From: Cetorhinus maximus
Lineage: Eukaryota
NCBI RefSeq assembly: GCF_964194155.1
Contig: NC_135899.1
Location: 70,990,001-71,054,000, forward strand
DNA: 64,000 nt
Reading direction: 5' to 3'
Part shown: positions 8,901 to 46,290 of the stretch, piece after piece
Numbering within the stretch: the stretch's first letter is position 1
Layout: each line of letters starts with the position of its first letter
Made by a program: the position numbers and the translations under genes
The notes under the pieces: model-generated
What the model was told of the DNA's origin: nothing
What the model saw: the letters and a program-made list of their open reading frames with translations, nothing else
Databases searched by the model: none

Positions 8901-11900
8901 AGTCTGACTTCGGTGGTGGGTAAATTATTGGAAACAATTCTGAGACACAGGATAAACTATCACTTAGAAAGGTACAGATTGATCAGGGATAGTCAGCATG
9001 GTTTTGTTAGGGGAAGATTGTCTCTTACTAACTTATTAGAATCTTGAGTAAGTTACAAGGAGGATTATTGAGGGTTATGCAGTGGATGTTATCGACATGG
9101 ATTTCAGTAAGGCATATGACAAGGTCCCACGTGGCAGACTGGTCAGAAAAGTGAGATCTCATGGGATACAGGGGAAGGTGGCAGGTTGGATCCAAAATTG
9201 GCTCAGTGACAGGAAGCAAAGGGTAATGGTCGGTGGATGTTTTTGCGAATGGAAAACAGTTACCAGTGGTGTTCCACAGGGCTGAGTGTTGGGGCCCTTA
9301 TTGTCCGTTGTATATATTAATGATTTAGACTTAAATATGAGAGGCATGATTGGGAAATTTGCAGGTGACACAAAAATTGGCCATGTAGTTGATAGTGAAG
9401 AGGATAGCTGTCGATTCCAGAATTATTTCAATGGTTTGGTTGAGTGGGCAGAGAAGTGGCAAATGGAATTCCATCCACAAAAGTGCAAGGTAATGCATTT
9501 GGGGAAGGCAAATGAAGCAAGGGAATACTCAATAAACAGGAAGTTACTGAGAGGGGAAATTATTGAGGGGTTGAGAAGTGAGGAGTACATGTCCACAGGT
9601 CCTTGAAGGCAGTAGGACAGGTGAACAAGGTGGTCAAGAAAACATATGGAATGCTTTCCTTTATTGGGTGAAGTACTGAATACAAAAGCAGGGATGTAAT
9701 GATGGAACTGTATAAAACATTGGTTAGGCCACAGCTGGAATTTTGTGTAGTTGTGGTCACCACATTACAGAAAAGACATAATTGCTCTGGCGAAAGTGCA
9801 GGGGAGATTTACAAGAATGTTGTCAAGGCTTGAAAATTTCAGCTATGAGAGATTTGATAGGCTAGGGTTGTTTCCCTTAGAACAGAGGAGGCCAAGGGGT
9901 GACCGAATTGAGGTGTACAGAATTATGAAGTGTCCACATAGAGTAGACAGGAAAGACTTGTTTCCCCTAGTTGAAGGGTCAATTGCCAGGGGCACAGATT
10001 TAAGGTGATTGGTAGAACAATTAGAGGGTACATGAGGAAAAACCTTTTCACCCAGAGGGTGGTGGGCATCTGGAATTCACTGCCTAAGTTGGTGGTTAAG
10101 GCTAAAATGCTCAACTTATTTAAAAAAGGTACCTAGATCCGCATCTGAAGTTCTGTAACCTGCAAGGCTCCAGGTGCTGGAAAATGGGATTAAAATGAAC
10201 GGCTAGTTTTTTTTTCTCATTTTGGCTGACAGATACAAATGGGTTGAATGGCCCCTTTCTGACTGTAACATTTCTATGGTTCAATCTGTTTCCAAGGATT
10301 TTGTGCAGACTGGGCTTTTTGCTTCAGGGAAGTTTAAGATTTTAATCTCAAAGATAGCACAGTAAAAGGACAAAACAAAAAATTATAACCCCATAGACAA
10401 AATAGCCACATTTTAACAATACTTTAAGAGACCCATTTCATACAGAGCTGGTGTGACCAGATTTTGTCCCAATCTTTTAGAAAACACAAACTCTTACTTC
10501 TGTTCTCAAAGCATCTTACCTTTTTGCGTTAAGTGGATAGATCTGCCCCTCGATCTGCTACGGCTTCTTCTGTGAGATGGTGGTTGGGTTCTGCACATAA
10601 AGCCATTATGGCTTCTCTGAATTCTGGATGGAGACCTCGACCATGACCTGGAGCGGGATCTTCTGTACCTCAAGCTGGATCTTGACCTTCTGTATGATCT
10701 AGAAGGGGGCATGTAGCACCTAGATCTGGACCTGTATCTACTTGGTGGCTGATAAGACATTCGACATCCAGATCTTCGGTAACAAGACCTTGACCAGCTT
10801 CTAGACCGGGACCTTGAAGAGGTCCGCCTTGATCTTCTGCAGCTCCTCTTCAGTGAAGCATATCTGCCTCTTGAAGCTAAAGAGATATCATCTGAACTTG
10901 AACCATACCGTTCTGAAGACGACACTGAACCTGATCGGGAGCTGCCTGAAGATGACACTGAACTTGATCGAGAGCTGCCTGAAGATGACACAGATATCGA
11001 TCGAGAGCTACCTGAAGACGATGTTGAACTCGACCGCGAGCTGCTTGAAGAACATGCTGAACTTGACCAGGAGCTGTCTGAAGACGATACTGAACCTGAT
11101 CGAAAAGTGCTCGAAGATGAAACCGAACCTGATCGGGAACTGCCTGAAGATGACAGTGAACTCGATCGGGAGATTTTAGACTTCTTGATACCAAGTGTTC
11201 TGGAACGTGAGGTTCTCTCCTTTTCAGTCTTCTGAGAAGGACAACCAAGTCTCAATTCATCCACACCAACACCTACATTTTCAGTCTTCTGCTCCTGTGC
11301 ACATCCATCTGTTCCCCATTCCATTTCAATGTCTTTCTCAGACATCTGCTCCATTTCTGAATCTGATTTCAAAACATCATATCTTTGTTGCAAATTTGTT
11401 TTACCTAAAAGATCAATAATTACATTCACATGGCAGTGAACACAAACCTTGTTATCTATATTGAACACATACAGAATTACATAATCTAATCTAGTATATG
11501 GCATATTAATTGAATTTCAACTGCTGTTACTATTTTCCATTATTTTACACTAAAAGCTGAATTCAGTGGTTTAACACTAACCAAACATAGCAACATATCA
11601 GAGAATCTTAAGGCATTAGAAGGAGGCTATCCAGCCCATCATGATTGTGCTGACTCCTTGAAGGAGTTATTAGATTAGTTCCATTTCCTGACTCTTTCCC
11701 CATAACCCTACACATTTTTCATTTCCAAGCAAATATTCAATTCCCTTCTGAAATTTACTATTGAATCTGCTTCCACCAACCTTTCAGGCAGTGTATTCCA
11801 GACCATAACTCACTGTGCCCTTTGGTGGCTGACTCATTTGCCACAGGAAACAGTTTCTCTTTACTTACAAATACCAAAACCCCCAATTTTAAGCACCCCA

Positions 11901-14782
11901 AATAAATCTCCCCTTAAACTTTCTCTGTGCTAATGAGAACAATCTCAGCTTCTCCTATCTCTCCACATAACACACCCCTCATCTCTGGCATCATTATGGT
12001 AACTCTCCACTACATCTTTTCAAGGCCTTGACATCCTTCCAAAACTGTATATAAACTTCATATTTTGGAGTTTAACTGCAAACTACACAGTAATTCTTCC
12101 AAGTTTAGAGGTCAACATTTAGCACAATTTTTCTAGAAACCTCAAATTGAATACACAAAGTTCTCAGTGTAGGTAACATGAAACTTTTCAATTTTAGCTT
12201 AGAGAAAATTCCTCCAGTCGGACACTTTCAACTTAAAATCGAAGGAGCTTTTATATTATTTTCCATCTCCAATTTCTGTAGCATAAGTTGCCTGGAGTGA
12301 GTAACCAACAAAACTTTTAGATCAACAACAAAGTCCCAATTTTTATGGATTCTTCTTGCTTGTTGTCAATCTTAATGGGGCTAGTAAATGCACCGCTTCA
12401 TCAGGTGCTGGACATTCTGCTGTTATGTAATGCTGCTACTGTACAAAATTGCAAAGATGCACTACTGTTCACAGGTGTATTATCTAAATACTAATGACAT
12501 GAAATATCAGACATTTGTGCTCCATGCACTGACCAGTGTTACAGCTAGTCAACATTATTTCTGCTATGCACTCATCAAGGGAGACTGGGGGCACCATACT
12601 TTTAGAGCACTCTCTCATGATCGGGTAAACTGCACCAAAGCCCATGACTCAAACAGTTAGTTTCATTCTATCAATTACAAGCATTAAAAGAATTATTTTT
12701 TTTCCCCAATATCCCACCTATTTCCATTATTTTAAATGTATTTCCATCCATTGTTTTATCTCTGCCTTTTAGCATATTTCGATTCCTTCACCCCACCAGG
12801 GCTATCTGTACCTTGCTCGTCCTGCTTTCTACCCTTAATGTCACCTATTAGCACATTCCTTAGATAATATCACCACCTTCAACACCTCTTTGGCCTTTTG
12901 TCTATGACATCTTTTGGCCATCTCCACCTATCACTGGCCCTCTATCCAGCTCTACATGTCCCACCGCCCCCCCTTAAACCAGCTTATATTTCACCTCTTT
13001 TCTATTTTTCCTTAGTTCTGTTGAAGAGTCATACGGACTCGAAACTTTAACTGTGTTCCTCTCCGCAGATGCTGCCAGACCTGCTGAGTTTTTCCAGGTA
13101 TTTTTATTTTTGTTTCGGATTTCCAGCATCCGCAGTTTTTTGCTTTTATTATAAAAGAATTAAATGTCTCACCTCAGTTCCAAAGGGACACTAGAGTAGC
13201 TCAGAGATGCTTTTAGAAACAATTTTAAGTCTAAATTAATACTCTACACAAACCTTCACCACTACACAACCACTCTAATCATTACAGATCCTTTGGCTTG
13301 TAAAATAATGCACAGCAGTCCAAACACCAAGCATAGTTTTCTCTCCCATGCATCATGGAAAGGTCGAACCACTGAGTTTCAAATATAAACTGAAAACAGA
13401 AAAATCTAAAACAATTAAACTTACCACAGCTGGATTTCTCTCCCATCATTTCCCTGGAGAAACCAACTGAATTTAGCCTGTTAACACAAAAGATACTTTT
13501 TGTAAGTGAAACTTAGGCAGCTTAGGTCAGAACCATAAGTAGTTGCATTATATTTATAGCAATGAGAAGAATGGGAACAAAAGGTTTTAACACAAGACAA
13601 CCAACAGCCTCCATAAACTTGAGTTCATTTAAAATGGCACTGCTCAAACTGGACCAAGCCCCACTCACATATTACTACTGTCCTCATTGATCTACACTGG
13701 CCCCAGATCTATGAAAGCCTCAAAATTAAAAGCTCTCAGATTTAAAACCCATCATGGCCTTACCCAATTCCTTCTCCAACTTACTCCACCCCTACAACTC
13801 ACCGCACCAACAGTTTCCTCGAACTCTGCCCACAAGGTGCACCCTGCCCTCCTATTGCCTCCAATCATCTAAGCTCCTCATTCCTTTAACCCTTCCAACT
13901 CCCTCTGTTCCATCTGACATTGTTTGTGATCACCTTTCATATCTCTTCATTCATTTTTGATTGCACCTGTGAAGCACACTGTATTTTTTCTTATGTTAAA
14001 TGTGCTATATCAATGCAACATGCAATTGCATTGCAACTTTCATATATCAATTATTTGATGAAACCTAAAACAAAAGGAATCAAAGGCAAAAAAGCCTGCA
14101 TTTTATTCAGCTTCATCAGCAGCGTCACCCAACAAGTGAGTCAATCGCTTTCTGGAAAATTCTCCAATGCTGGAGAATTGGCCATAGGGAGGGGGCCGAG
14201 AAGGAGCTGCTGATCAGTGGTGAGTCAGCAGCTCGACTCTGAACAGTATAAATATCCTTTATCATGTAGAAATACAGTCTCTCCTTCCCCAGCGCCGGAA
14301 CTAAAATAATGAAAATTATTACTGTTGTCGACTTAACGTAATTTTAACAATATACAACGGGTTACACTCACTGCATTTCATTTTAGGTTATCAACTCATT
14401 TTCATTAGGACAGTATATATAAAAAAAAACAAACACTAATAACCTTGACTTTGACCCCACTCCCTCCCCAAAAACCCAACCCATTGACTTTCACCCCATT
14501 CCCCTGACAACCCAACCCAAACCCTGACTCTAACCATGATCCCAGCCCAAACTCCCTCTTCACTTATCAGCCGGTCAAAAGTGCGCCACACCCAAGGCCG
14601 AGACTTTAAAACTATCGATAAAATCAGGTTCCCCCCCACCCCCCAAAAAAAAATTTCAATTTCAAATAATTTTGCTAGCTGGGTTTTTTTTTGTCCTACA
14701 AAACTCACCGATTATAATCACTGGCTTGATGCTTGGGAGACTCTGAAGTGCCGCACTTCTTACCGTTAGCGAGTATCACCAT
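2805..14782 (-). CDS. RSRP1: Arginine/serine-rich protein 1 (RSRP1/C1orf63), spliced gene
   Basis: Exons 13425-13477 (ATG at 13449), 10520-11404, 7670-7833, 3609-3707 and 2805-2951 (TGA) all have GT-AG ends and consistent phases (1,1,0,0), giving 439 aa from ATG 13449. An optional upstream ATG at 14782 lies in exon 1. The protein has an RS-rich domain, LLEIATANA, IAFS-NTVAKP and PYGQW motifs as recalled for RSRP1. It is syntenic with TMEM50A and RH. Confidence 0.9.
3060..3212. repeat. 153-bp near-identical copy of 726-878
   Basis: Direct comparison shows 2 mismatches. Confidence 0.9.
3609..3707 (-). CDS. RSRP1: RSRP1 internal exon (99 nt)
   Basis: tgcag / gtaagt ends; EYKKEAEED...HWIAFSVK. 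Confidence 0.85.
5150..6340 (+). mobile_element. Old, decayed CR1 LINE
   Basis: Recognisable similarity to the CR1 RT and 3' region at 9-10 kb (gatgataccaaact, ggtcaggccaca). Confidence 0.65.
7670..7833 (-). CDS. RSRP1: RSRP1 internal exon (164 nt)
   Basis: ccag / gtgagt ends; EKKKLLEIATANADKLLGK...ELTRK. Confidence 0.88.
8780..10285 (+). mobile_element. CR1 LINE, 5'-truncated, RT region
   Basis: [39 protein letters not shown] in broken frames. Confidence 0.9.
10520..11404 (-). CDS. RSRP1: RSRP1 large Ser/Arg-rich exon (885 nt)
   Basis: ttttag / gtaaga ends; lies inside ORF 10506..11504; poly-Ser repeats followed by RS dipeptides. Confidence 0.9.
10915..11178. repeat. 33-bp coding tandem repeat, 8 copies (SSSGSSRSGSV-like)
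   Basis: Unit gaagatgacactgaacttgatcgagagctgcct recurs at 33-nt period from 10915. Confidence 0.9.
11600..12045 (-). mobile_element. CR1 3' fragment
   Basis: Reverse complement resembles the CR1 3' tail. Confidence 0.6.
12696..13151 (+). mobile_element. Penelope-like element 3' terminal repeat, 5'-truncated, with 11-bp TSD
   Basis: Matches the reverse complement of about 43770-44210; flanked by taaaagaatta at 12685-12695 and 13152-13162. Confidence 0.85.
13014..13052 (+). ncRNA. Minimal hammerhead ribozyme-like motif (core variant CUGUUGA)
   Basis: agtt-CTGTTGA-a-gagtc-atacg-gactc-GAAA-cttt-aact. Confidence 0.5.
13425..13477 (-). CDS. RSRP1: RSRP1 exon 2 (contains ATG ATG at 13449/13446)
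   Basis: ttaacag acceptor and gtaagt donor; MMGEKSSC+G ends in phase 1, matching the next exon. Confidence 0.75.
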
Positions 14783-14790
14783 TTTGTCAC
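14709..14790 (-). other. RSRP1: RSRP1 putative first exon with two alternative donors (exon ends 14764 and 14709)
   Basis: Lies about 30 nt downstream of TATAAAA; Inr-like TCAGT; donors G|gtaaga and G|gtgagt; ATG at 14782. Confidence 0.6.
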
Positions 14791-15060
14791 TGAAACAAAC
14801 GTAATCGATCTGCTCTTTTTATAACCTGACCGTCCGCGAGAACCCGCCTTCCCCTCTCTCTCATTGGCTGTTGCTTCCAGATCCCTATTATTATTGGTTT
14901 ATTTGGAGGCCGCGCGAGGTATTGGGCTGTAGAACACCGCGTACGGAGGCTGACCCTCTTATCATTGGTCAAGGGAGCTGTCCGTCACAGGGTGGACGCG
15001 GCGGCTGCTGCTGCCAATTCGACGCCCAATTGGTCCATGTGGATGTCAATCAACAAAGAG
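14790..15060 (-). promoter_or_regulatory. RSRP1 promoter: TATA box plus cluster of CCAAT (NF-Y) boxes, CpG-rich
   Basis: TATAAAA on the minus strand at 14817-14823; ATTGG at 14863, 14893, 14921, 14964; CCAAT at 15014 and 15026. Confidence 0.7.
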
Positions 15061-31133: not shown

Positions 31134-33470
31134 ACAAAGCCATTATACCTTCTACCACAATGATAGATGTAGGAAAATAACTGTGACTGACTGCTTAGCA
31201 ATAGTTCTGGTATTATACATATTCAGCCATTTTGAAACGAGCATCATCTTAGCACTTCCTGCTATTTGTTTGATTATCAGCCATTCTCTTCAATATGTTA
31301 AGCATTCCATTTTGATTAGGTTTTGTGGGACAAAACATTTTCTATTCCATTTAACATAAATGATGCATTGCAAATTATATTTAAAAAGTTGTGTTTTATA
31401 AACTGGATAATTATAGATAAATCCTAGCAGAAAAATCACATTCCAATTTTAAAAAAAAATAATTGGGCAACTGGCTGTTACATCCTCTGCTGTAAATGTA
31501 GAATTACTCTGTACTCCAGTTAAGGAATTATAATTCTTGGTAGCTTAAATTGAATATAACAAAATGTAACTTTTTCCCCTTAGATTTGTGTTATTTCCAG
31601 TCCTAGGGATACTCAATATTTCAAGCTGTTTTCAATTTGACTTCTTAGCATCAGCATGCATTATGATGTCTTGAAATTAAATCAGTTGAAAGTTAATAAA
31701 CAGATAATGCTAAAGTGTAGATCAGGCTGATGAACACCTGGAAGAGAAAGATAGGTTAACAGGGGGGGAAATTCAACAGAATATTTGCATAACTTTGATA
31801 ATTACCTCAAACACTGAGCATTTCTTTCAAATATTCATTGAACTGCACATTTCCAGCATCCGTTTTTAAAATCAGATTTTTCAGAAACTATTAAAAGTTG
31901 TCAGTTTAAATTCTATTCAGCTAATTAAATAATGATGCCTCAAGGTATAATTTTGTCTTGCTTAGATTTCTATGGAAATCTTAATGTAACCAAATTATCA
32001 GGATCCTATGATAATTAGTTTTGACAGTTTGTTTTGGGTGGGGGGGCTTGACGTAGCTTCATATATTTGGCTACACTATTTCCAATTAAATTATTTTGAA
32101 AACAACGTTTTAGGTTATTTTCTTACCGTAAGATTTGGGAAAGACCAATGCCTTTATCCACAAAAGGAAAGTGGTCACTTGGTAAGAAACTTTTCAGTAT
32201 AGTTCAATCCATCTATAGACAGCATCAAGCCACTTCAATTCACATTATGGGCTGATTAAGAATCAAATAGTAGAAGTTCTCTCATACTGCAACAACATTG
32301 GCAGGTAAAACTCAGACTGATTATTTTTAACTACATACAGTACATAGTTACCAAGTTAAAAGACAAAATGATGAGAATCTGCAACTTTGGTTTAAAAAAA
32401 AAAGCACTGCATTTTGTACTTTAATCTGCCCTCTGCACAAACTAATTGGTAATACAGTTATGCTAGAGATGTTAATTGTCCAAGTTTATGAAAATGAAGC
32501 TTACCCTTTGTAAATTATATTTTATATTCTAACATAGGATATAAGTGGGGAATGGCAGCTTTATTCCACGAGAAGGGATTTACATGGGCCAGAAATGTAC
32601 AATTCCTGCTATTAAAATGACACACCAAGTTTCAGGTCCAAAACACCAGCTTCATTACATCCTTTATAAGGCAGCAAAAGAAACCAAATCTGTCCAAAGT
32701 ATGATATTTATTACAGATTTTAAAAACTTATTTGCACCACTAAATAAAGGATTGCAAAAAAATGCAACAAAACAAGTTCTGTTCAACATCAGTGCACTTT
32801 CAAGTTAAGATTTTCAGCTGGTTGGTTCAGCTACCCAAAACTATCATAGAGAAAGAAATAAGTTCCATATACAATTTAATCCAATATGTTATGGCTCATA
32901 GCTTTTGTACAGTCAGATGGGTCAACCACAGCAGTGGGCTTTGGGATCTCTTAATAAATATAAAAGATTCAGACCGTCAAAAAAACAAGGATTTCCAAAT
33001 ATCCACTCGCTTTCTAGCCAAGGAATGACATGTGGCACTGGAAGGTTAGAAACCAAATGGACAATTAGAAAGCCAAAATGCCTTTTAAATGTCAAATACA
33101 ATGGAGTAATATGCCTTATAGCCAGAAAAATGTTACAGAAGACGTCTGTGTTTTCTGTAAAATCTAGAGGAAGCCAGAATATCAGTGAACCACCCTCTCG
33201 AAACTGAACATTACCCACTTCCAAGTGTAAATCGAGATTTCAGAGAGTACATCAGTCGGAATCACTGATGGCTAGGCAGAAATTCGCTCACGTTAACCAA
33301 GACTGGCCGCAAGTAAGGAAGATGGCGGCTAACATGCGACTTGCTGCAATTTGTTAACAAAAGACAATTACAAATCTGATCTTCAAAAGGCGACTCCGTC
33401 CTCCGACTGCCTTTGCTTCAGGGGAATATGAAAAGCTGCACTGAGTAAACCTCCCTCCTTAAGTCACCGT

Positions 33471-33956
33471 TTATCTTCCCGAGCGAACCAATCCGGGTCT
33501 GGAAGGAACCATCATGGGCCGATGAGGCCCCATCATCGGCCCCGGCATCATGGGCATGGGGCCGCCGATCGGCGGTCTCATCCCGGGGCCGACCAGCATC
33601 ATCCCGGGGGGCGCCGGGCCCATCATCGGCATCATGGGCGGCCCTCCCATCGGGGGCCCCGGCAGGATGGCGGGCCGCGGCGGCGGCACGCCGACATTGC
33701 CGGGCGGCGGCGGGATGGCGGCCCCGGCGGGAGGCGGACCAGCCGGCGCCGGGAAAGGAGCGGTGGGCGGGATCTTCCCCTGGCGGAAAGCGGCGGTGGT
33801 CTTATCGATGAGGCTCTGGGCCTGCTCCTCCATCCATTTCTGATAATAGTCTTTGACGTTCTCTTTGTGCTTGCGGCCCTCGCAGTGGGTTTTGCGGACA
33901 GACGGGGAGTCGTGTGTCAGGTAAGTGTCGCAGTAATCGCAATAATACTTCGGCAT
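33471..33956 (-). CDS. SNRPC: U1 small nuclear ribonucleoprotein C (U1-C), intronless, 161 aa
   Basis: [57 protein letters not shown] (matrin-type zinc finger) followed by a Pro/Met/Gly-rich tail; uninterrupted ORF. Confidence 0.95.
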
Positions 33957-34160
33957 CTTGTCAACTGGGCGGCGGGGCTGTGCGCATGCGCCGCTTGCTC
34001 GCCCGCCAGGCCCTGATATACCCGAGCGCGTCACACGCCCTGACGTCACTCCGATCATGTGACGGCCCCGCGCTAATGGGCATGCGCGTATCCAGTTGGC
34101 TGCCGAGGGAGGACTGAGCTTTTGTTTGCGACCGTCTTTCCCGGTGACCGAGCAAGTATG
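33957..34160. promoter_or_regulatory. Bidirectional CpG-island promoter shared by SNRPC (-) and TMEM50A (+)
   Basis: NRF1-like TGCGCATGCGC at 33981-33991 and GCATGCGC at 34080-34087; CRE TGACGTCA at 34041-34048; E-box-like TCATGTGAC at 34055-34063; candidate + strand donor gtatgg at 34156 for a non-coding TMEM50A exon 1. Confidence 0.7.
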
Positions 34161-35899
34161 GGATTCGTTTCGTAGATCGTTTTTCTTTTAAAGTTTATCA
34201 GTTTTTATTTCGTATGTTTACTTTATTATATAGAGTGCAGCCGCTGTTGTCGTTGTAAATGGTGATACTCTTTTTCAGCTGGGGCTCGAGAATTAAAGGG
34301 TCGTCGCAGCTGTGGAGTGAGCATGCGCACAGCTGTCCCTCCTGTAGTGGGAGATGTAGTTTTCTGGAGGCTGGATTTTCAGCCTCAGGGAAGGAGTGGG
34401 AGTCATGCAGGACTATAAATCCCGAGAACACTATAGGGCCTAGCCTTTCACTCCTCAGGCTTGTCTCGGTAATATTTTGTGACCGCATTACATTCCCCCA
34501 GTCGTGCGGCTGCCATTAATTTATCTAAAATATTATTTCAGATAATGGGCAAGTGGGTCTTGTTAGTCGTTCAAACAAATATTAAGCTTTTCTTGTTGAC
34601 AATATTTATGGCTTAGGTAAATTTAAGGTTGTAGTTATTTCACTATATTTAAGAATATTGATTCTAAAGTGGAAGAAATTGGTATTGATTTATTTTGAGT
34701 GCAGGAAGTACCTTTTAAAGTATGCTGGTGTGCCAGAGTTGTCCTGACTCCTTCAGTAACACCAAATTAGTGAACAATGCTTGTATTACTCCATTAAGAG
34801 CACTCTTTTTTTATTTTGGTCTCATGCTGAATTGACCATAAAGCATGATCACTCTATCACCTATCTTTGGGTTTCCACTAAACCCTGTACCAGTCACTGA
34901 TTGCTCCCAGGTTTCTGCCTCTGGCTGAAACACACTTGCAATCCTAGCATCCTGTCCAATCTTGAATTGAGTTTATGATCTCATATTCTCTGTAATATGG
35001 CCTGCCTGTCCCTCCCTTCGCCCATCTGTCACAGAAATCCTCATCCGTGTGTTTATCACATCTCAGATTTGACTATTCCAATTTCCTCTTGGCAGCTCAT
35101 TCTACACCTTCCCCTAAATGTCAGTTTGTTGAAAGCTCTTCTCGCATCCTGCCTTGGACGCATCATCCCTGTCTTTGCTTGATTACATTGACTCAGTGTT
35201 CCAATGCTTCCAATTTAAAATTTTGATCTGTGTATTTAACCCCTTCATTGCCTTAACCCTTCCTATTTGTGTAACTTCATTCGGCCTACAACCTCCCTTG
35301 CAATCAGAGCACTTCTCTGATTTCTTTCATTTGTGCATCTTGCCTGCACCCCACTATTGGTGGTTGTGTCTTCATTTTTTTGGGCTCTAGATTGTGGAAT
35401 TCTCCAAACCTTACTGCTTCCATTTTTTTTTCTCTTTTTTGAGGCTCTCCTTAGATCCCACCTCTTTGGTCATCCCTCTTAATATCTCCTATCCCTTAAG
35501 TTATTTTTGACTGCTTCTAAAGCACTTTGGAGGCATTTTTCAATAGTAATTGAAAATGTAAGTTGTTGTTTTTCCTATCCTTTGTTTTTGCTTCTTTCCC
35601 GATGTCCTCTTCTCTCTATCTTTTCTTCCAAGTGGTGTGGCCTGCTGCGGCAGGCTGGATTTGAATTGGGGTTGTGAAGATCATGTGATCCTGTGTAGCT
35701 CCTTTTCTCTTATCACTCAGCTAGTGATTTAAGGCATGTTATGTGCAAGTTCTTTCTTTAAATAATATGATGCATCAATGACACAATGTCCTAGCATTTA
35801 CATCTGTAACAATTTTCCATTTTGTGCTTATTTTTACATTGTACTGGTACTATTTGTTAATACATGTGACTGGGAGATCAGTCGTATTTCAATTGGTCC

Positions 35900-46290
<10,391 letters not shown>

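What the first reader, a model, noticed from the sequence alone, without database searches (positions are those of the whole stretch)
33471..34160. Intact intronless U1-C (SNRPC) retrogene apparently driven by the TMEM50A promoter
Seen: a complete 161-codon U1-C ORF with no introns, stops or frameshifts. It is CpG-rich throughout, unlike the AT-rich neighbouring genes, shows no visible poly(A) remnant or TSD, and its ATG is about 200 bp head-to-head with the presumed TMEM50A first exon across NRF1/CRE/E-box sites. A minus-strand AATAAA lies at 32560-32565. Known: vertebrate SNRPC is multi-exon and is not part of the human RSRP1-TMEM50A-RH locus. Relative to the human sequence as I recall it, the changes are F4Y, S26E (next to the zinc ligands) and Q58R. 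Inference: an old, selected retrocopy of a core spliceosomal factor that captured a bidirectional promoter. It is either a second U1-C paralog, which could give variant U1 snRNPs, or a replacement for the parental gene.
Basis: partly seen in the sequence, partly recalled or inferred. Interest (0 to 1): 0.75.

Follow-up and report, generated by a model that had tools for sequence, protein, structure and literature searches.

The report
Shark splicing gene replaced by retrocopy
The only gene for the core splicing protein U1-C that could be found in this shark-like genome has no introns and sits head-to-head with an unrelated gene; it is most likely an old reverse-transcribed copy that replaced the original gene, a known kind of event that my literature searches did not find reported for this gene.

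Summary
Observation confirmed: an intact, intronless 161-codon U1-C (SNRPC) ORF at 33956-33471 (-), inside a CpG island, head-to-head with TMEM50A. Five searches of the 3.99-Gb assembly found no second U1-C locus or exon. The ILRUN-BLTP3A interval, where bony vertebrates keep SNRPC, holds no remnant (38 kb, one 200-N gap). The protein is 93-99% identical to the U1-C annotated in six other cartilaginous fishes; in two other sharks and a skate that gene also lies away from ILRUN. A probable RNA contig of a related species shows 5 synonymous and 0 non-synonymous changes. The amino-acid changes are unremarkable: Y4 is ancestral, position 26 is variable, all listed RNA-contact residues are kept. 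Not shown: strand and start of transcription, promoter sharing, intronless state in other species, and the pre-gnathostome location (lamprey U1-C is not beside ILRUN either). Verdict: most likely an old orphan retrogene of a core U1 snRNP subunit, a new member of a known kind. Interest 0.45.

The parts
33471..33956 (-). Single-exon U1-C (SNRPC) coding sequence, 161 aa: zinc finger and long helix (1-61), Pro/Met/Gly-rich tail
32486..33470 (-). Probable 3' UTR, about 985 nt, colinear with the ORF and unspliced
   Evidence: one 1,300-nt contig of run X19 (RNA by guess, organism C) covers 32486-33793 with no joint; 23 substitutions and 16 gap letters fall in this part. Strand cannot be read from contigs
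32560..32565 (-). AATAAA candidate polyadenylation signal (a second AATAAA at 32707-32712)
   Evidence: the X19 contig ends 74 nt beyond it, so the real cleavage site is not fixed
33201..34400 (.). CpG island covering the ORF, the intergenic gap and the presumed TMEM50A first exon; no other island between it and the TMEM50A coding exons
33957..34100 (.). Presumed shared (divergent) promoter: NRF1-like 33982-33991, weak TATA-like element 34014-34020 on the minus strand, CRE 34041-34048, E-box-like 34055-34062, NRF1-like 34080-34087
   Evidence: motifs recalled, function inferred
34090..34155 (+). Presumed non-coding first exon of TMEM50A, ending at a GT donor-like site at 34156 (start approximate)
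   Evidence: sequence only; not tested with RNA
38073..42939 (+). First four coding exons of TMEM50A (38073-38171, 39580-39692, 42039-42106, 42847-42939)
   Evidence: AG/GT borders and an open joint frame; Pfam UPF0220; an Rh-family gene lies tail-to-tail 17-33 kb beyond the window's end region, at C22:71.061-71.077 Mb (-)
10520..14830 (-). Downstream neighbour: Arg/Ser-rich gene (RSRP1-like) with its own TATA/CCAAT promoter near 14820, so U1-C does not lie in its first exon
   Evidence: the name rests on composition and recalled synteny, Pfam RSRP gave no match

Best explanation
This intact intronless ORF is the only U1-C gene found in the assembly, and it is most likely an old retrogene that took over from a lost intron-containing parent. 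Inferred steps: a spliced SNRPC mRNA was reverse-transcribed by retroelement machinery in an ancestor of at least sharks and skates; the copy landed head-to-head with TMEM50A, whose housekeeping CpG promoter likely fires in both directions and would give the broad expression an essential splicing factor needs; the parent then decayed beyond recognition. The protein is predicted to work as ordinary U1-C, stabilising the U1 snRNA/5' splice-site duplex. What differs is gene regulation: its mRNA would need no splicing, would be co-regulated with TMEM50A, and cannot make the splice variants seen in bony vertebrates.
For: Shown: (1) No other U1-C locus in G000 in 5 of 5 searches: full protein, residues 1-61 at E<=10 (the 4 other hits are LINE reverse-transcriptase pieces), Pfam zf-U1 at E<=1 (the 4 other hits are other zinc-finger genes), 1,334 nt of DNA, a sturgeon U1-C protein at E<=1. 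Sensitivity: one search picked up a 19-codon exon of the distant relative WBP4 (name by recognition); a 36-codon U1-C exon from 6 of 6 test animals would score 65-74 bits, about E 1e-14 to 1e-17 on the scale. (2) G000:C8 keeps the order TAF11(+), BLTP3A(-), ILRUN(+); the 38-kb interval between the BLTP3A and ILRUN start codons, and the whole 290 kb fetched, holds no U1-C zinc-finger match. ILRUN and U1-C have consecutive record numbers in sturgeons (4 pairs), two elopomorph fishes and a frog, and human SNRPC neighbours ILRUN and UHRF1BP1/BLTP3A (passages of PMC7270589; PMC9402578). (3) U1-C and ILRUN lie on contigs of different length in Chiloscyllium plagiosum (51.7 v 53.3 Mb) and Scyliorhinus torazame (426 v 191 Mb) and about 2,800 record numbers apart in Amblyraja. 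(4) Database gene models break off exactly at K3|4 in 38 of 205 non-chondrichthyan proteins (crude pattern; hagfish included), at S17|P18 in 8 (11 flagged, 3 discounted; lamprey and sturgeon included), and 11 carry an insert near residue 120; 0 of 9 chondrichthyan records do any of these. These breaks mark introns in outgroups on both sides of sharks (inference); the ORF reads through all three. (5) Purifying selection: 5 synonymous changes in about 86 sites, 0 non-synonymous in about 232 sites, codons 56-161, against the X19 contig (Fisher p=0.0013); no indel in the coding part. (6) 93-99% identity to six other cartilaginous fishes, one clade 97/97.
Against: A 200-N gap lies inside the 38-kb slot at C8:43,243,628; its true size is unknown, and withheld or unassembled DNA cannot be searched. 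Lamprey U1-C is neither beside ILRUN nor beside TMEM50A-like by record number and contig length, so the ILRUN position is shown to be ancestral for bony vertebrates only. No poly(A) remnant or target-site duplication survives. Intronless state and TMEM50A adjacency were not shown for any other species: the search meant to fetch shark TMEM50A records returned 1 lamprey protein, and the DNA runs X5 and X9 laid no contig on the ORF. Expression rests on 1 of 2 probable RNA runs laid (X15 laid nothing), with library type guessed and strand unknown. The 5' end and promoter were not covered by any read-laying run.
Confidence: 0.8

Rival explanations
1. The gene is not a relocated retrocopy but the original gene (or a whole-genome-duplication sister copy) that lost all its introns in place by recombination with its own cDNA; the bony-vertebrate position next to ILRUN would be the derived or alternative one, and the divergent promoter would be old rather than captured.
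For: Lamprey does not polarise the location; no insertion scars; no trace of a parent at the ILRUN slot.
Against: It needs loss of every intron plus a separate single-gene move or reciprocal loss; TAF11, BLTP3A and ILRUN keep their order here with only SNRPC missing. Absence of parent traces is the rule for orphan retrogenes (24 of 25 in PMC3548309, section 14). That wholesale intron loss in place is rare in vertebrates is recalled.
Confidence: 0.11
2. The parent still exists but is missing from this assembly (in the C8 gap or withheld DNA), so sharks would have two U1-C proteins and possibly two kinds of U1 snRNP.
For: The 200-N gap lies in the expected slot; only 120 of 776 homologues and up to 15 members of 15 U1-C clusters were seen.
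Against: All 5,087 contigs were searched; the whole gene would have to fit in the gap, with no exon in the other 37.8 kb. The top-120 list runs down to insect U1-C, yet every record named as a cartilaginous fish is of this one type (E26 in 10 of 10 including the window protein, in 0 of 205 others); none of the listed members of 10 bony-vertebrate clusters was a cartilaginous fish.
Confidence: 0.07
3. A recent or silent processed pseudogene, or an assembly artefact.
For: No run on record as RNA was laid over the 5' end; strand unknown.
Against: Intact frame, 5:0 synonymous to non-synonymous changes, high CpG content, 98-99% identity to other sharks' only annotated U1-C, four runs of organism A hold 97-100% of the sampled words (possibly the assembly's own source).
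Confidence: 0.02

Closest known systems
Orphan retrogenes (Ciomborowska et al., PMC3548309: 25 human cases; Carelli et al., PMC4772013: 10 mammalian families), e.g. RNF113A, IMP3, RRS1, UTP3, ZNF830
   Same: Single-exon copy at a new locus, parent lost without trace, strong purifying selection, CpG-island promoter (9 of 10 in PMC4772013), housekeeping RNA-processing functions well represented.
   Different: Cartilaginous fish rather than mammal; a stoichiometric core subunit of the U1 snRNP; SNRPC is not in the 25-gene table and the term does not occur in that paper's main text. RNF113A and ZNF830 as spliceosome-associated factors is recalled.
Head-to-head retrocopies that recruit a neighbour's bidirectional promoter (11 human, 12 mouse cases; HTR7P1/HEBP1 in PMC4772013)
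   Same: Divergent orientation within 2 kb of another gene's presumed start, on one CpG island.
   Different: Co-expression and start sites were measured there and are untested here.
Vertebrate SNRPC / U1-C (PDB 6qx9, 4pjo; PMC4383343)
   Same: Zinc finger and helix identical to human but for 3 of 61 residues; all ten residues that PMC4383343 names at RNA or SmD3 (T11, Y12, T14, H15, S19, R21, K22, H24, R28, K29) are kept.
   Different: No introns, different chromosome neighbourhood, no possibility of the human finger-less isoform (PMC9402578) or the 25-residue cassette of sturgeon, bowfin and eels.

Membership tests
U1-C / SNRPC protein family | zf-U1 domain above the curated cut-off | tested here: met
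   83.6 bits v cut-off 22; E 9.9e-23
U1-C / SNRPC protein family | RNA- and SmD3-contacting residues and long helix conserved | tested here: met
   58 of 61 residues identical to human; residue list from passages of PMC4383343
U1-C / SNRPC protein family | Pro/Met/Gly-rich C-terminal tail | tested here: met
U1-C / SNRPC protein family | Incorporation into U1 snRNP and 5' splice-site stabilisation | not testable with these tools
   inferred from conservation
Orphan retrogene | Uninterrupted across the parent's exon junctions | tested here: met
   ORF is continuous; three junction positions inferred from breaks in outgroup gene models; the six-exon human structure is recalled
Orphan retrogene | Different genomic location from the parent's orthologue | tested here: met
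   C22 beside TMEM50A v empty ILRUN-BLTP3A slot on C8; met against bony vertebrates, lamprey uninformative
Orphan retrogene | Parent absent from the genome | tested here: met
   5 of 5 searches found only this locus; caveat: one 200-N gap in the slot
Orphan retrogene | Purifying selection on the ORF | tested here: met
   5 synonymous, 0 non-synonymous v organism C; one species pair, codons 56-161 only
Orphan retrogene | Transcribed, broadly | tested here: inconclusive
   one contig at depth 133 in 1 of 2 probable RNA runs, stopping at 32486 where DNA runs have pieces further out; library guessed, strand and tissue unknown
Retrocopy (young-insertion hallmarks) | Poly(A) remnant and target-site duplication | tested here: not met
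   expected to erode in old copies (general knowledge), not required by either cited definition as far as the passages read show
Bidirectional-promoter recruitment | Divergent starts on one promoter and co-expression with the neighbour | not testable with these tools
   geometry fits; no start-site data

The most novel reading that the evidence does not exclude
All living cartilaginous fishes, chimaeras included, make U1-C from one intronless retrogene that replaced its parent before their radiation: a whole vertebrate class in which a core U1 snRNP subunit is made without splicing, is tied to the TMEM50A promoter, and has lost splicing-based control and isoforms, giving a natural experiment on whether U1 snRNP homeostasis needs introns in SNRPC. 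Parent-dependent retrocopy surveys would miss it by design.
Probability: 0.45. Interest if true: 0.6.

Novelty: new member of a known kind. Interest (0 to 1): 0.45.

Why it matters
Orphan retrogenes are catalogued mainly in mammals; a deeply conserved one for a core spliceosome subunit in sharks and rays would extend the phenomenon to the sister group of bony vertebrates, where retrocopies are reported as 95.7% species-specific and least often ORF-bearing (bioRxiv 10.64898/2026.06.26.734816, passages). The survey method in PMC13320880 aligns a species' own mRNAs to its genome and needs a parental exon junction, so such cases would be missed, which suggests more are waiting. It also gives a clean test of whether U1-C needs its own introns: the known U1C/U1-70K feedback acts on U1-70K pre-mRNA (PMC3798272, abstract), so loss of SNRPC introns is predicted to be tolerated. 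It would serve as a rare genomic marker for cartilaginous-fish phylogeny. It does not point to a new spliceosome chemistry.

Tried and rejected
Variant-U1-snRNP idea from the substitutions: rejected; Y4 is ancestral, position 26 is S/G/T/N/A/Q/E across the 191 proteins with the motif and is not among the contact residues named in PMC4383343 (term 'Ser26' absent); position 58 is K in insects. Idea that U1-C sits in the first exon of the RS-rich neighbour, giving a U1-dependent choice between cleavage and splicing: dropped, that gene has its own promoter-like region 18 kb away. No RNA holder on record was listed. Run X15 laid no contig, and X5 and X9 none on the ORF; a filter drops records, so this says nothing. 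Read-laying over the promoter and TMEM50A exon 1 was not obtained. Pfam RSRP found nothing anywhere. Search for shark TMEM50A database records gave 1 lamprey hit, so adjacency in other sharks is untested; chimaera ILRUN had no contig on record. Earlier-findings look-ups returned nothing. The protein tree (25 of the proteins fetched) groups all cartilaginous fishes but cannot date the retroposition. Literature: 9 searches listed no title or abstract on an intronless or relocated SNRPC in cartilaginous fish; one search was too loose to count; 'SNRPC' is absent from the main text of PMC3548309, PMC10751288, PMC13320880 and the 2026 pseudogene preprint. Supplementary retrocopy tables of those papers were not seen and may bear on novelty.

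Full report
Observation. The window carries an uninterrupted ORF at 33956-33471 (-) of 161 codons. It is U1-C: Pfam zf-U1 83.6 bits, human U1-C at E 2.6e-71 over 1-160, with F4Y, S26E and Q58R the only differences in residues 1-61. The ORF is 66.7% GC with 52 CpG (o/e 0.97) in 32-40% GC surroundings. NRF1-like, CRE and E-box-like motifs lie between the ATG and 34100 (consensus recalled, no chance control). TMEM50 coding exons begin at 38073 on the other strand; the only CpG island upstream of them is this one, and a donor-like GT at 34156 would close a non-coding first exon (inferred). An Rh-family gene follows tail-to-tail and an Arg/Ser-rich gene with its own promoter-like region lies 18 kb downstream of U1-C, which fits the recalled RSRP1-TMEM50A-RH order. 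No poly(A) tract or flanking direct repeat was found.

Is there a parent? Five searches of G000 (3.99 Gb, 5,087 contigs) returned only this locus as U1-C: the full protein, residues 1-61 at E<=10, the Pfam family at E<=1, 1,334 nt of 3' UTR and C-terminal coding DNA, and a sturgeon protein at E<=1. The 8 weak extra hits were read out: 4 LINE reverse-transcriptase pieces and 4 other zinc-finger genes (identified by recognition). One of them is a 19-codon exon, so short exons are seen; the central 36-codon exon of a parent would score 65-74 bits (6 of 6 test proteins). Short exons of TAF11, BLTP3A and U1-70K were found the same way; U1-70K matched only over profile positions 1-46, as a split gene would.

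The expected slot. In bony vertebrates U1-C and ILRUN records are consecutive: four sturgeon pairs, Albula, Synaphobranchus, Eleutherodactylus; for human see PMC7270589 (one passage) and PMC9402578 (passages). In G000, C8 shows TAF11(+) at 43.03 Mb, BLTP3A(-) with its start codon at 43,215,314 and ILRUN(+) with its start codon at 43,253,458 (ILRUN exon 1 is 100% identical to shark ILRUN records). I fetched 290 kb: no zinc-finger match by tBLASTn with 9 U1-C queries, a short-match matrix, or blastn (part of that output was cut, the visible rows hold only proline-rich or chance matches). The 38-kb interval has one 200-N gap with repeat on its left flank. This is the main loophole.

Other species. 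The best database cluster (7 members) is U1-C of Chiloscyllium plagiosum, two Scyliorhinus, Amblyraja, Rhinoraja and Callorhinchus, 93-99% identical (one low-quality chimaera model 89%), one clade at 97/97. E26 occurs in 10 of 10 cartilaginous-fish sequences including the window's and 0 of 205 others. No second type was seen, but only 120 of 776 hits and partial cluster lists were visible. U1-C and ILRUN are on different-length contigs in Chiloscyllium and S. torazame and far apart in record number in Amblyraja, so the separation is probably shared by sharks and skates. Against a neat story: lamprey U1-C is not beside ILRUN or TMEM50A-like either, chimaera could not be placed, and I could not show a single exon or TMEM50A adjacency in any other species.

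Were there introns to lose? Database models diverge exactly at K3|4 in 38 of 205 non-chondrichthyan proteins (hagfish included), at S17|P18 in 8 (lamprey, sturgeon; 3 of 11 flagged rows dropped as point changes or truncation), and 11 fish proteins carry a conserved 25-residue insert near residue 120; none of 9 cartilaginous-fish records does. I read these as intron positions shared by cyclostomes and bony vertebrates, which makes the intronless state derived. The records are not independent and the pattern is crude.

Selection and expression. Run X19 (organism C; RNA by guess, transcriptome-sized) gave one 1,300-nt contig at depth 133 over 32486-33793 with no joint. Of 28 listed substitutions (29 counted), 23 are in the 985-nt UTR and 5 in the ORF, all 5 synonymous; all 16 gap letters are in the UTR. 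That is 5 of about 86 synonymous v 0 of about 232 non-synonymous sites (p=0.0013). The contig stops at 32486 while DNA runs X5 and X9 have pieces at 31800-32170; with one study this is at most a weak hint of a 3' end. X15 laid nothing. Strand, start sites and tissue range are unknown.

Mechanism. Shown: one intact, conserved, intronless gene; empty bony-vertebrate slot; divergent geometry on one CpG island. Inferred: retroposition, recruitment of the TMEM50A promoter, loss of the parent, ordinary function of the protein. All ten contact residues named in PMC4383343 (passages) are kept, Y4 is ancestral and position 26 is variable, so a variant snRNP is not indicated. The U1C/U1-70K feedback works on U1-70K pre-mRNA (PMC3798272, abstract) and would be untouched.

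Comparison and novelty. This works like, and by the tests I could run belongs to, the orphan retrogenes of PMC3548309 (passages and section 14) and PMC4772013 (passages), which also describes head-to-head promoter recruitment. Nine literature searches and term look-ups in four papers found no report for SNRPC in cartilaginous fish; supplements were not seen, and public annotations already name the orthologous proteins U1-C, so the gene is annotated even if its history seems unremarked. Verdict: new member of a known kind; confidence 0.8; interest 0.45.

Noticed in passing
database proteins P0026, P0090, P0207-P0215: Sturgeon, bowfin, eel, tarpon and bonefish U1-C isoforms carry a conserved 25-residue insert at the last inferred intron, probably a conserved cassette exon; no trace of it in G000.
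   Followed up: partly
G000:C9:116,040,066-116,040,251 (L047): A TMEM50-like stretch reading through exon borders in one frame with stops nearby, probably a decayed processed copy of TMEM50.
   Followed up: partly
G000:C13:33,271,301-33,272,917 (L053:3301-4917, -): A single-exon 538-codon Rh-type ammonium transporter ORF, while the other Rh genes match exon by exon; resembles the intronless RhP2 group (recalled).
   Followed up: partly
database protein P0092 (Narcine): A shortened, diverged U1-C-like record of the E26 type with a long branch, possibly a decayed secondary copy of this gene.
   Followed up: no
window 10520-11400 (-): The RSRP1-like exon contains about eight imperfect Ser-rich repeat units of about 11 codons before the RS stretch; Pfam gives no match.
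   Followed up: no
window 33987-33961 (-): The ATG inside the proximal NRF1-like site opens an 8-codon out-of-frame reading frame that stops 4 nt before the U1-C start; relevant only if transcription starts upstream of it.
   Followed up: no
window 32486-33470: The presumed 3' UTR differs from organism C at 2.3% of sites, fewer than synonymous sites (5.8%, 5 changes only), hinting at constraint on the UTR or CpG mutability in the ORF.
   Followed up: no
G000:C8:43,243,628: 200-N gap inside the BLTP3A-ILRUN interval.
   Followed up: partly
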